From assembly GCF_013167455.1 (NCBI RefSeq), contig NZ_CP038328.1: a DNA stretch of 64,000 bases, one strand, 5' to 3'. This DNA is from Escherichia coli O157:H7 (lineage in GTDB: Bacteria > Pseudomonadota > Gammaproteobacteria > Enterobacterales > Enterobacteriaceae). The position numbers are program-made. Below, one piece after another: positions 9,001-12,000 of the stretch; within the stretch, counting starts at the first letter, position 1; each line of letters opens with the position of its first letter.

Positions 9001-12000
9001 AAGAAGATTTCCAGATGCTACTCGACTTCCTGAAAGAAGCGCGTCTGGATCGCGTTGGCTGCTTTAAATACAGCCCGGTTGAAGGTGCAGACGCCAATGC
9101 CCTGCCTGACCAGGTTCCGGAAGAAGTGAAAGAAGAACGCTGGAACCGTTTCATGCAGTTGCAGCAGCAGATTTCCGCCGAGCGCCTGCAAGAGAAAGTG
9201 GGCCGTGAAATTCTGGTGATTATCGACGAAGTGGACGAAGAAGGCGCGATTGGTCGCAGCATGGCAGATGCACCGGAAATCGACGGTGCGGTTTATCTCA
9301 ATGGTGAAACCAACGTTAAGCCGGGTGATATCCTGCGTGTGAAAGTCGAGCACGCCGATGAGTACGATTTGTGGGGTAGCCGGGTTTAATTAATCTAAAG
9401 GCAGATCTAACAAGGATATTGTTCTTCGATCTGCCTCTACTACCCTTCCCGATGTCCTACCCTTACGCACAAAATCCCCTGACGCATAAATCGAGAAAAA
9501 TGAATCGTACTCGAGGCAACTCTCACTTTTTCACACCAAATTAAAGTTTTGATCGCAATTACTTGAAATAAGCGTAATGGTTACTATAGTAAACATTACC
9601 ACAAGGATGGATGTATGGGTGTGTATAAGGCAAGGCGATTCAGCCAAAGCACGAAAAAACTTGGTATTCACGATAAAGTTCTCATGGCTGCCGCTGAAGA
9701 AGTGATGCAAGGCATATGGGAGGCTGATTTAGGTAGCGGTGTCATCAAAAAACGGTTACCCCTCCAACAAGGAAAGAGTGGTGGAGCCAGAACAATTATC
9801 TTTTTTAAATCAGCAAATCATGTGTTTTTTTATGATGGTTGGTCCAAGAGTGGTCTAAGCAGTAAAGGAAGCAAAGAAATCGAAGATGATGAACTGGCAG
9901 CCTACAAAAAAATGGCAAATGCATTTCTGGCCTTTAGCAATAAGCAAATAGAGGATTTGATCGAAACTGGCTTCTTGATTGAGGTGAAAAATGAGCGATA
10001 AATTACAAATGATGCTGGAAGATGCAAAGGAACTGAATGCACTGGGCCTGATGTCTGATAGTGAGGTTGATGCCATTGCCGTCATGGTCAAAGCCCGTGA
10101 AGTCAGCGCCCGTATAGCCAAAGTCAAATCAATGACGGGTGAAGAGATCAAAGCCATCCGCACCCGATACGGCATGTCACAATCCGTGCTGGCACATACA
10201 ATGGGAATGTCAAAAGAAAGTGTCTCGAAATGGGAACGTAATGAAATAAAACCGAGCGGCCCGGCACTACGTATTTTGAATACATTGGCAATAAAAGGGC
10301 CGGAAGTTTTTGCAAAGTAAAATGTTTGCAAATGATTTACCACATTCATTAGTACCCCTTGATTCAGGGGTACTAACACTATTCTAATTCTACTGCCAGC
10401 TAATCTGAGCCCTGCCGTTTTTCTTACTCTTATACAGCCGCTCATCCGCCAGCATTTTCAAGCGTTCGACGGTAGTACATTCATTTGAATGCGCTACACC
10501 GATACTGGTGCTTAAATTAATGCTTCCCACCTGGAAATGAACGATTTCTTTTAGAATCGATAGTAACTCTTCCAGCGTGCCGCCAGTATAAATCACCGCA
10601 AATTCGTCACCGCCGAAGCGGTAGACTTTACCTTTATCTACCGGGATCTGTGATTTAAGGATTTTCACCACTTTCATCAACACTTCATCGCCCAGCAAAT
10701 GACCGAAGGTGTCGTTAATATTTTTGAATTTATCGACGTCAAACAGGCACAAATAACCGCCTTTTTCCGGCAGCGCTTTTAAATCTTCGTCAAAGGATTT
10801 TCTACCCATTGCTTTGGTCAGGTCGTCCAGGAACGCCGAGTTATACATACTGTAGAGTTTTTTGACATCGGCAGCCGAAAAGAAAAGCCCGCCATCCAGT
10901 ACGCGTTCAAAATGGTTATTAATAATGGCTTCTTTCTCCACAATACCACGATTAATCACTCTGCGTACCAGATAGAGGCAACTGGCACCCGATATCACTG
11001 CCACCAATGCGGCAAAGAAAATAATCAATGTACAGACCCGCAAATAAACATCTTTTTTATACGCAAATACGTACAATCCGGTCGGCAAATAGGCGAAGTG
11101 CTCCATCGCTTCCGAAACGGTGAAGATGGCGTTTTTAGCATTATATTCATCACCGGTCACCGGTTTACCGTTCTTAAACAGAGAGAACATCAGGTTCTCG
11201 CTGTCCATCGCCAGCGATTTTGACAGTAAAGAAAAACGCTCCAGACCAAGCAAAAATATCAGACTACGATTGTGAGTTACCGGATAGAGGTAATAGACGA
11301 AGGTTTTACCGTCAAAAGAGATAAACCCTGTATTTTTGACATGTCGATACTTCACAACCTGCATAATATCTGCACAATAATTTTTCTCGAACTCCTTTAC
11401 CTGAATACATTCGTCACTGGAAATCAGATAAGGACCGACATCGTACAAATAAGAGGGTGAAACCGAGTCGGCGTAAGCTGTGCGTAAGCCAACCAACAGC
11501 TGTTCCTCCGTGGGATTTAGCGTGTTGATAAGATCAATTGCCACGCTACGCCGATATTCAGCAATATTTGCCACCGCAAAAGCAGTATCAATAACGGACT
11601 GTTTCAGGCTATACACCCGTTCCTTTACCATTTGAGTGTAGATCCCGCAGGCAACTGCTGAAATCATGATAAAAATCAGCAGACTGACTGTAAGTACGAA
11701 CTTATTGATTCTGGACATACGTAAACTACTCTTTTACTAATTTTCCACTTTTATCCCAGGCGGAGAATGGCATGGGTTTCTGATACAGATACCCCTGAGC
11801 CTGAACACATCCTAATTTGATTAATTCGCGCGCAACGTCTTCGCTCTCTACGCCTTCCGCAATCACCGGGATCCGGTTATAGCGTGCCAGGTCGAAAATA
11901 ATGCGCACAATTTTTCCCGCAGTACCGAAAATATCGCCGGTAAATTGCGAGTCCACCTTTATGCTGTCTGGATTAATTTCATAAAAACGTTTCAGGTTTG

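What the first reader, a model, noticed from the sequence alone, without database searches (positions are those of the whole stretch)
9574..9599. Near-perfect 26-bp dyad upstream of the cassette, a candidate antitoxin operator
gtaatggttactatagtaaacattac is 24/26 symmetric, with a perfect 12-bp core (ttactatagtaa). It lies just upstream of the ribosome-binding site of the first cassette gene. Type II antitoxins commonly autoregulate through such palindromes overlapping the promoter.
Basis: seen in the sequence. Interest (0 to 1): 0.35.

Follow-up and report, generated by a model that had tools for sequence, protein, structure and literature searches.

The report
Predicted operator of an E. coli toxin-antitoxin cassette
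The 26-bp palindrome is real, sits on the promoter of a HigB2/HigA2-type toxin-antitoxin pair inserted in about a fifth of E. coli genomes, and is almost certainly where the pair's own repressor binds: an ordinary kind of switch, here in an unstudied example with an unusual four-box layout.

Summary
GTAATGGTTACTATAGTAAACATTAC (9574-9599) is 24/26 symmetric, one of two such dyads in 64 kb against 0.07 expected.

It overlaps a good sigma-70 promoter: TTGAAA, 16 nt, then TATAGT at the dyad centre. The genes downstream are a PF06296 (HigB2-family) toxin and a HigA2-like HTH antitoxin. They lie in a ~1-kb strain-variable insertion between rimO and dgcI, found in ~1135 of 5426 E. coli genomes.

- **Conservation:** in 23-26 distinct homologous cassettes from other Enterobacterales, inserted elsewhere, conservation rises exactly at the dyad edges. 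Consensus is GTAa-N3-TTAC-TATA-GTAA-N3-tTAC. Block identity is 0.73 against 0.33 in the flanks.
- **Specificity:** distant homologues whose antitoxins have a different recognition helix carry a different dyad, TATAnCACTnAGTGnTATA, also over the -10 (23/0/0/32).
- **Not a hairpin:** variable mirrored positions do not covary, and the RNA fold is unremarkable.

Best reading (0.85): an autoregulatory operator bound by the antitoxin or the toxin-antitoxin complex, blocking RNA polymerase. Its sequence and geometry differ from the V. cholerae HigA2 operator. The four-box spacing equals that of R-M controller-protein C-boxes, which suggests two dimers; this is inferred. Binding is untested.

It is a new member of a known kind, of modest interest.

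The parts
9395..10390 (+). Strain-variable ~1-kb segment carrying the whole cassette (promoter/operator, toxin, antitoxin, hairpin). It replaces a ~43-bp hairpin-containing spacer between rimO and dgcI in cassette-less E. coli.
   Evidence: Homology to cassette-less genomes stops at 9394. The empty site is L081. 1138 of 5426 complete genomes carry the cassette.
9563..9568 (+). Predicted -35 hexamer TTGAAA
   Evidence: Consensus scan found TTGAAA, a 16-nt spacer, then TATAGT, 10 of 12 matches. A TTGnnn -35-like element 16-18 nt upstream of the -10 is found in most relatives. There is no experimental transcription start.
9574..9599 (.). 26-bp dyad, the predicted operator. It has four boxes: GTAA 9574-9577, TTAC 9581-9584, GTAA 9589-9592 and TTAC 9596-9599. 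The N3 spacers are 9578-9580 and 9593-9595. The central TATA is 9585-9588.
   Evidence: 24/26 symmetric. Phylogenetic footprint with edges exactly at 9574 and 9599. Class-specific association with the antitoxin recognition helix. Invariant in at least 1131 of 1135 E. coli carriers; the one variant checked has a SNP in an N3 spacer.
9585..9590 (+). Predicted -10 hexamer TATAGT at the dyad centre. An alternative overlapping -10 is TACTAT at 9582-9587.
   Evidence: The transcription start is inferred near 9597-9598, inside the right outer box.
9604..9611 (+). Shine-Dalgarno-like AAGGATGG of the toxin gene
   Evidence: Read from the sequence. It lies 3 nt before the ATG at 9615.
9615..10001 (+). 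Toxin gene, 128 aa, Pfam PF06296 (the 'RelE' family that contains V. cholerae HigB2)
   Evidence: Pfam E 6.8e-33 over the full-length profile. The family profile hits only HigB-2 chains in the PDB. PF06296 is equated with the HigB2 family, gene order toxin then antitoxin, in PMC11980606.
9991..10320 (+). Antitoxin gene, 109 aa. [quoted passage not shown] The predicted recognition helix is around S74-R83 (SKESVSKWER).
   Evidence: HTH_3 E 1.9e-9. Family profile versus PDB: HigA-2 E 7.8e-13. AF2 model pLDDT 89.5; its HTH domain superposes on the HigA2 C-terminal domain at 1.1-1.2 A.
10349..10376 (.). Perfect 11-bp-stem hairpin TTAGTACCCCT-N6-AGGGGTACTAA between the convergent antitoxin and dgcI genes. 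It is a possible terminator with no T-run.
   Evidence: Relatives carry unrelated hairpins at this position.

Best explanation
The dyad is the autoregulatory operator of a HigBA2-type type II toxin-antitoxin operon.

The cassette's HTH antitoxin binds it as a dimer, free or in complex with the toxin. It reads the four conserved boxes GTAA/TTAC/GTAA/TTAC. The site spans the promoter spacer, the -10 hexamer and the predicted transcription start, so occupancy excludes RNA polymerase and represses toxin-antitoxin transcription. Loss of the labile antitoxin would derepress it.

What is shown:
- the dyad itself;
- its position on a consensus promoter;
- the identity of the proteins;
- conservation of the site across genera;
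- the switch of site type with recognition-helix type.

What is inferred:
- physical binding;
- repression by occlusion;
- the role of the toxin;
- stoichiometry. My preferred sub-model (about 0.5) is two dimers, one on each 11-bp GTAA-N3-TTAC sub-palindrome with centres 15 bp apart, as in controller-protein C-box operators. The alternative is one dimer centred on the TTAC-TATA-GTAA core.
For: - **Dyad statistics:** 24/26 symmetric and rare by chance.
- **Promoter:** TTGAAA-16-TATAGT, with the -10 at the dyad centre. The same arrangement occurs in relatives.
- **Proteins:** PF06296 toxin plus XRE-HTH antitoxin. The best solved relatives are HigB-2 and HigA-2. PDB entry 8a0x is the HigB2-HigA2 tetramer on its operator DNA.
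- **Precedent:** the HigA2 operator is an inverted repeat running from after the -35 across the -10 (PMC11006873).
- **Footprint:** 26 distinct enterobacterial cassettes were anchored only on the 12-bp core. Information content is 1.6/1.2/1.8 bits at GTA (-13..-11) and 1.0/1.6/1.2 at TAC (+10..+12), against about 0.25 in the flanks. Pairwise identity, on the 23 of these within 2 mismatches of the core, is 0.73 in the dyad, 0.89 in the outer arms, 0.37 in the N3 spacers and 0.33 in the flanks.
- **Mobility:** these cassettes sit in unrelated genomic contexts, so the site travels with the genes.
- **Specificity:** the 'S[VI]SKWER' helix goes with the GTAA-type dyad, and 'ST[VI]QKWE'-type helices go with TATAnCACTnAGTGnTATA. 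Counts are 23/0/0/32, Fisher p 5e-16, not corrected for phylogeny.
- **Contact residues:** HigA2's base-contacting residues R68/E71/N72/R77 align to E76/S79/K80/E85 here, which fits a different operator sequence.
- **Within E. coli:** the dyad is invariant; the one rare variant examined has a SNP in an N3 spacer.
- **Four-box geometry:** 4-3-4-4-4-3-4 equals the C-box consensus GACTnnnAGTCnnnnGACTnnnAGTC, bound by two XRE-HTH dimers (PMC2504287). MqsA likewise binds AACCT-N3-AGGTT, twice, in its own promoter (PMC4894380).
Against: - No binding, footprint, reporter or transcription-start data exist for this cassette. I found no paper on it.
- Conservation of the central TTACTATAGTAA is partly explained by -10 function alone, and that core was also used as the alignment anchor.
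- The helix/operator association rests on two deep clades, so it amounts to few independent events.
- Five of 28 group-A loci and six of 38 group-B loci lack a recognisable full dyad within 100 nt.
- The characterised family member, HigA2, uses a single 7-N5-7 repeat and one dimer, so the two-dimer reading has no precedent inside the family.
- The degenerate motif is not exclusive to these cassettes: six unrelated matches occur in viral contigs, mostly T7-like promoter repeats.
Confidence: 0.85

Rival explanations
1. The block is only the cassette's promoter. On this view an AT-rich -10 region is conserved for RNA polymerase, its symmetry is incidental, and no repressor binds there.
For: The dyad core contains two overlapping -10-like hexamers, TACTAT and TATAGT. 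Mirrored positions show no covariation beyond what column composition predicts.
Against: The outer GTA and TAC triplets lie in the spacer and at the transcription start, where sigma-70 reads little sequence. They are nonetheless the most conserved positions (pairwise identity 0.89), are mirror images of each other, and were not used for anchoring. By contrast the -35 itself is poorly conserved and shifts by 4 bp between relatives. Distant relatives replace the block with a different dyad that tracks the recognition helix.
Confidence: 0.07
2. The dyad acts through base pairing. It could be an RNA hairpin (a terminator for rimO read-through, or a 5'-UTR structure) or a DNA cruciform.
For: It is a near-perfect palindrome lying downstream of rimO.
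Against: - The RNA fold of 9560-9625 is -11 kcal/mol against -10.6 for shuffles, z = -0.2.
- The stem is AT-rich, has no loop and is not followed by a U-tract. The terminator scan found nothing there.
- There is no Rfam match.
- In relatives the variable mirrored positions pair only at chance level, 26-48%.
- The predicted transcription start lies inside the right arm, so the operon's own transcript would lack the left arm.
Confidence: 0.02
3. The dyad is a protein-binding site, but for a host or other regulator rather than the cassette's antitoxin.
For: Binding was not tested. E. coli encodes related orphan HTH proteins such as YiaG (PMC11980606).
Against: The site accompanies the cassette into unrelated genera and insertion sites. 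It changes class with the cassette's own antitoxin helix. There is only one copy in the 64-kb window.
Confidence: 0.05

Closest known systems
Vibrio cholerae higBA2 operator and HigA2 antitoxin (PDB 5jaa, 5j9i, 8a0x; PMC11006873)
   Same: - The toxin is in the same Pfam family (PF06296), and the gene order is toxin first.
- The antitoxin has an N-terminal toxin-binding part and a C-terminal XRE HTH. The HTH superposes at 1.1-1.2 A, and the family profile gives E 7.8e-13.
- The operator is an inverted repeat lying between the -35 and across the -10.
   Different: - The operator sequence and layout differ: TGTACGC-N5-GCGTACA (19 bp, one dimer) there, against GTAA-N3-TTAC-TATA-GTAA-N3-TTAC (26 bp, four boxes) here.
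- All four base-contacting residues differ.
- The group-A antitoxins have an 8-residue longer linker.
- The N-terminal part is predicted helical with high confidence rather than disordered.
C-box operators of restriction-modification controller proteins (C.Esp1396I, C.AhdI; PMC2504287, PMC3351150)
   Same: - The box geometry is identical, 4-N3-4-N4-4-N3-4 = 26 bp (GACTnnnAGTCnnnnGACTnnnAGTC).
- The binding proteins are XRE-type HTH dimers. These also appear among the structural and profile matches of the antitoxin.
- A TATA element is present that is deformable on binding.
- The site overlaps promoter elements and gives autoregulation.
   Different: - The box sequence is different.
- In C-boxes the conserved TAT(A) sits inside each sub-palindrome, whereas here the TATA lies between the two.
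- C proteins both activate and repress and control R-M genes.
- No R-M genes are present here.
- Two-dimer occupancy is untested for this site.
MqsA palindromes of the mqsRA promoter (PMC4894380)
   Same: The gene order is toxin first. The antitoxin has a C-terminal XRE HTH, weakly similar (TIGR03830 E 1.8e-12, below the cut-off). Each palindrome has an N3 spacer (AACCT-N3-AGGTT), and there are two palindromes in its own promoter.
   Different: The antitoxin here has no zinc-binding CxxC N-terminal domain and contains no cysteine. The toxin belongs to PF06296, not to MqsR. The two MqsA palindromes are separate rather than abutting across the -10.

Membership tests
Type II toxin-antitoxin autoregulatory operator | Inverted repeat located in the promoter region of the TA operon, overlapping the -35, -10 or transcription start | tested here: met
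   The dyad 9574-9599 spans the spacer, the -10 (9585-9590) and the predicted start of a 10/12 consensus promoter. The promoter is predicted, not mapped.
Type II toxin-antitoxin autoregulatory operator | The operon encodes an antitoxin with a DNA-binding domain | tested here: met
   HTH_3 E 1.9e-9. The model's HTH domain matches the HigA2 DNA-binding domain at 1.1 A.
Type II toxin-antitoxin autoregulatory operator | The site is conserved with the cassette and co-varies with the regulator's specificity determinants | tested here: met
   Footprint. Helix class against dyad class is 23/0/0/32.
Type II toxin-antitoxin autoregulatory operator | The antitoxin or TA complex binds the site and represses transcription | not testable with these tools
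   This needs EMSA, footprinting or a reporter assay. No publication on this cassette was found.
HigBA2 (PF06296 toxin with HigA2-type antitoxin) module | Toxin belongs to Pfam PF06296, with the toxin gene upstream of the antitoxin gene | tested here: met
   Pfam E 6.8e-33, profile positions 1-120 of 120. Family definition in PMC11980606. Gene order.
HigBA2 (PF06296 toxin with HigA2-type antitoxin) module | Antitoxin has a C-terminal XRE HTH dimerisation and DNA-binding domain like HigA2 | tested here: met
   E 7.8e-13; rmsd 1.1-1.2 A, TM 0.82-0.84 relative to the target.
HigBA2 (PF06296 toxin with HigA2-type antitoxin) module | N-terminal toxin-neutralising region is intrinsically disordered when free | tested here: inconclusive
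   AF2 predicts helices at 2-17 and 23-41 with pLDDT 81-95. A prediction cannot establish disorder or order of the free protein.
HigBA2 (PF06296 toxin with HigA2-type antitoxin) module | Operator is a single TGTACGC-N5-GCGTACA-type 7-N5-7 repeat | tested here: not met
   The sequence and layout differ, and the contact residues are not conserved. So it is a family member by its proteins, with its own operator.
R-M controller-protein C-box operator | Four boxes spaced 4-N3-4-N4-4-N3-4 | tested here: met
   GTAA-TGG-TTAC-TATA-GTAA-ACA-TTAC compared with GACTnnnAGTCnnnnGACTnnnAGTC.
R-M controller-protein C-box operator | GACT/AGTC box sequence, and location upstream of a C gene of an R-M system | tested here: not met
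   The boxes are GTAA/TTAC. The downstream genes are a toxin and an antitoxin, and the neighbours are rimO and dgcI.
MqsRA-type module | Antitoxin has an N-terminal zinc-binding CxxC...CxxC domain and reaches the TIGR03830 cut-off | tested here: not met
   Score 47.1 against a cut-off of 61.8. The 109-aa protein has no cysteine.
Intrinsic terminator or structured RNA | Stable GC-rich stem with a U-tract, or pairing maintained by covariation | tested here: not met
   (z -0.2).

The most novel reading that the evidence does not exclude
The enterobacterial branch of the HigBA2 family may have replaced the single-dimer 19-bp operator seen in V. cholerae and in the distant group-B relatives. In its place it has a four-box, 26-bp operator with the exact geometry of restriction-modification C-boxes.

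On this reading two antitoxin dimers (or toxin-bridged TA complexes) bind cooperatively on roughly opposite faces, across the -10. That would give a steeper, switch-like autoregulation. It would also point to a shared operator architecture, by descent or convergence, between TA antitoxins and R-M controller proteins.
Probability: 0.35. Interest if true: 0.45.

Novelty: new member of a known kind. Interest (0 to 1): 0.3.

Why it matters
The cassette is carried by about a fifth of complete E. coli genomes, including O157:H7, and appears to be unstudied.

This analysis gives a precise, testable operator: four boxes, with defined conserved and variable positions. It also gives two operator classes, each paired with a recognition-helix class, across the PF06296/HigA2 family. 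That is a ready-made system for studying how XRE-HTH antitoxins change DNA specificity and stoichiometry.

In practice the 26-bp site with the antitoxin could serve as a compact orthogonal repressor-operator pair. Otherwise it is a textbook type of regulation.

Tried and rejected
- **Literature search** for this cassette by guessed locus tags and protein accessions. I only learned that ECs0915 is rimO and that ECs0916/Z1062 is bssR. Nothing was found on the cassette.
- **Reverse test** by scanning viral contigs for the degenerate operator. It gave six hits, none next to a homologous toxin or antitoxin. Four are repeats of T7-like promoter sequence (…ACTATAGGGGGA). So the pattern is not exclusive, and the scan was uninformative about function.
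- **Hairpin or terminator reading.** Rejected on fold energy, lack of a U-tract, lack of covariation and no Rfam match.
- **A second, downstream operator.** The 24-bp imperfect palindrome at 10317-10340 begins GTAA and ends TTAC, but it lacks the box spacing and is absent from every relative.
- **Mirror-position covariation** as evidence for symmetric recognition. Observed values equal those expected from column composition, so the test is uninformative for protein binding, though it argues against pairing.
- **MqsA membership.** Rejected: below the cut-off and no zinc domain.
- A first attempt at the helix-class regular expression was wrong and was corrected.
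Full report
**Observation.** Window 9574-9599 reads GTAATGGTTACTATAGTAAACATTAC. 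It equals its reverse complement at 24 of 26 positions. The single mismatched pair is G9580/A9593, and the 12-bp core TTACTATAGTAA is perfect. Only two 13+13 dyads with at most one mismatched pair exist in the 64 kb. Thirty dinucleotide-preserving shuffles gave a mean of 0.07.

**Setting.** The window is E. coli, identical to many O157:H7 genomes. rimO ends at 9389 on the + strand, and dgcI ends at 10390 on the - strand. Between them lie two overlapping + strand genes.

- The first gene (9615-10001) encodes a 128-aa protein matching Pfam PF06296 end to end, E 6.8e-33.
- The second gene (9991-10320) encodes a 109-aa protein with a C-terminal HTH_3 domain.
- RefSeq annotates them as 'type II toxin-antitoxin system RelE/ParE family toxin' and 'helix-turn-helix domain-containing protein'.
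- PF06296 is the family that contains V. cholerae HigB2. Its gene order is toxin then antitoxin, and its members are ribosome-dependent mRNases (PMC11980606).

Evidence from solved structures points the same way. A profile of the toxin homologues hits only HigB-2 chains among solved structures. A profile of the antitoxin homologues hits HigA-2 best, E 7.8e-13. An AlphaFold2 model of the antitoxin has pLDDT 89.5. Its HTH domain superposes on the HigA2 C-terminal domain at 1.1-1.2 A.

**The cassette is a strain-variable insertion.** Homology to cassette-less genomes stops at 9394. In those genomes about 43 bp with a GC-rich hairpin occupies the position of 9395-10390. 1138 of 5426 complete genomes carry the cassette.

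**Promoter.** A consensus scan finds TTGAAA (9563-9568), a 16-nt spacer, then TATAGT (9585-9590), 10 of 12 matches. The -10 lies at the exact centre of the dyad. The left half fills the spacer. The right outer arm covers the expected transcription start near 9597-9598, which is inferred. A protein on the dyad would therefore occlude RNA polymerase.

**Phylogenetic footprint.** A scan of one genome per species returned 80 loci encoding toxin homologues. In the enterobacterial relatives the toxins are 44-74% identical. These include Kluyvera, Siccibacter, Pantoea, Enterobacter, Photorhabdus, Xenorhabdus, Proteus, Providencia, Morganella, Pectobacterium, Pluralibacter and Phytobacter. The cassettes sit in unrelated contexts, and their downstream sequences are unrelated.

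I anchored 26 distinct upstream regions only on the best match to the 12-bp core. The results were:

- Information content is about 0.1-0.5 bits in the flanks.
- It jumps to 1.6/1.2/1.8 bits at G-T-A (-13..-11).
- It falls to 0-0.4 in a 3-nt spacer and is high across TTACTATAGTAA.
- It falls again, then rises to 1.0/1.6/1.2 at T-A-C (+10..+12), and drops immediately outside.
- On the 23 of these loci within 2 mismatches of the core, mean pairwise identity is 0.73 in the 26-bp block, against 0.33 and 0.34 in equal-sized flanks. It is 0.89 for the outer triplets, which were not used for anchoring, and 0.37 for the spacers.

Its consensus is GTAa-N3-TTAC-TATA-GTAA-N3-tTAC.

**Variation within E. 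coli.** The 101 bp around the site are at least 99% identical in 1131 of 1135 carriers. In the common variant examined, the SNP lies in the toxin coding region. The one rare variant examined differs at G9580C, an N3 spacer position.

**Specificity switch.** The more distant homologues come from Legionella, Thiotrichales, Rheinheimera and many MAGs. They carry a different conserved dyad, TATAnCACTnAGTGnTATA, whose right end forms the -10. Their antitoxins have a different recognition helix, S-x-ST[VI]QKWE instead of SKES[VI]SKWER.

Among non-redundant loci with a recognisable dyad, the association is complete: 23/0/0/32, Fisher p 5e-16. This is not corrected for phylogeny and reflects essentially two clades. 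In 3450 shuffled upstream regions, the group-A pattern with at most 3 mismatches never appeared, and the group-B pattern appeared 3 times.

HigA2 reads its operator TGTACGC-N5-GCGTACA through R68, E71, N72 and R77 (PMC11006873). These residues align to E76, S79, K80 and E85 in the window protein. That fits a third, different specificity.

**Pairing versus protein recognition.** The symmetry of the site comes from conserved columns. At the variable mirrored positions, complementarity is at chance level: 26-48% observed against 28-42% expected. As RNA the region folds no better than shuffles, z = -0.2. There is no U-tract or terminator call and no Rfam match. A hairpin or terminator role is therefore rejected.

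**Mechanism.**

- *Shown:* a conserved, class-specific dyad sits on the -10 of the promoter of an operon that encodes a HigA2-like HTH protein.
- *Inferred, by homology to HigA2:* the antitoxin dimer, alone or as a TA complex, binds the site and represses transcription by occlusion. HigA2's operator lies in the same promoter position, and the HigB2-HigA2 tetramer has been crystallised on its operator (PDB 8a0x).

**Stoichiometry is open.** The site is longer than the 19-bp single-dimer HigA2 and group-B operators, and it has four conserved boxes. Its spacing, 4-3-4-4-4-3-4, is identical to the C-box consensus GACTnnnAGTCnnnnGACTnnnAGTC of R-M controller proteins. There, two XRE-HTH dimers bind cooperatively on roughly opposite faces (PMC2504287 and PMC3351150).

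Controller proteins also appear among the antitoxin's structural and profile matches. MqsA, a weaker relative, likewise binds N3-spaced palindromes, two per promoter (PMC4894380).

I therefore favour two dimers, one on each GTAA-N3-TTAC, at about 0.5. The alternative is one dimer centred on TTAC-TATA-GTAA, the geometry of a single C-protein dimer straddling a TATA.

**Comparison and novelty.** By its proteins the cassette is a member of the HigBA2/PF06296 family. The operator is of the known kind, an autoregulatory TA operator. It differs in sequence and layout from the only characterised operator of the family. No publication on this E. coli cassette or its operator was found in the searchable library. 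The nearest is a bioinformatic description of related RelE-YiaG modules, which does not analyse operators.

**Verdict.** This is a new member of a known kind and of modest interest. The four-box, C-box-like geometry is the only non-routine aspect, and it is still inferential.

Noticed in passing
window 37882-37907: This is the only other 26-bp near-perfect dyad in the window, TTCTGCATGGTTATGCATAACCATGCAGAA. It lies just after the ORF 36972-37871 and is followed by TTTCT, so it looks like an intrinsic terminator.
   Followed up: partly
window 10317-10340: A 24-bp imperfect palindrome, GTAAAATGTTTGCAAATGATTTAC, straddles the antitoxin stop codon. It begins GTAA and ends TTAC like the operator boxes. 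It lacks the box spacing and is absent from all relatives examined.
   Followed up: yes
window 9396-9439: An inverted repeat with 18-nt arms, 83% complementary, and an 8-nt gap lies at the left edge of the inserted segment, directly after the rimO stop. It may substitute for the GC-rich hairpin (caggccgggcaaaatcatttgtccggcctg) that separates rimO and dgcI in cassette-less strains.
   Followed up: no
L031-L080 (upstream of the toxin start, about -20 to -57): Distant PF06296/HigA2-like cassettes share a second conserved operator class, TATAnCACTnAGTGnTATA. Its right end forms the -10. It is paired with an S-x-ST[VI]QKWE recognition helix.
   Followed up: partly
L069 1924-1963 (Legionellales MAG): A perfect 40-bp palindrome, ATATAGTATAATAATTAGTATACTAATTATTATACTATAT, lies upstream of the toxin homologue in place of either operator class.
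   Followed up: no
L001 (contig JAIJJM010000872.1, labelled Collinsella sp. MAG): This 1.2-kb contig is 99% identical to the E. coli cassette, including the dyad. It is probably a mis-binned E. coli fragment in that MAG.
   Followed up: no
L086, L087, L088, L090 (viral contigs) and L089 4007-4032: The degenerate operator pattern also matches tandem repeats resembling T7-like phage promoters (…ATTACTATAGGGGGA…). In L089 it matches an unrelated perfect 26-bp palindrome, GTAGCCGTTACTATAGTAACGGCTAC. No TA homologue is nearby in any of these.
   Followed up: partly
E. coli relatives of window 9615-10320 (H25 NZ_CP172816.1; proteins P0013, P0025, P0035, P0037, P0049): Some E. coli genomes carry truncated toxin genes of 73-108 aa, or a partial cassette lacking the promoter region. 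In H25 only query positions 275-1021 are covered, at 93% identity. This suggests ongoing decay of the cassette in some lineages.
   Followed up: no
L029 and L033 (Chimaeribacter): Their antitoxins have the group-A recognition helix, but only a half-like element (GTACTnnGTACTATA) is present, about 65-80 nt upstream of the start. The promoter appears displaced and the operator reduced.
   Followed up: no
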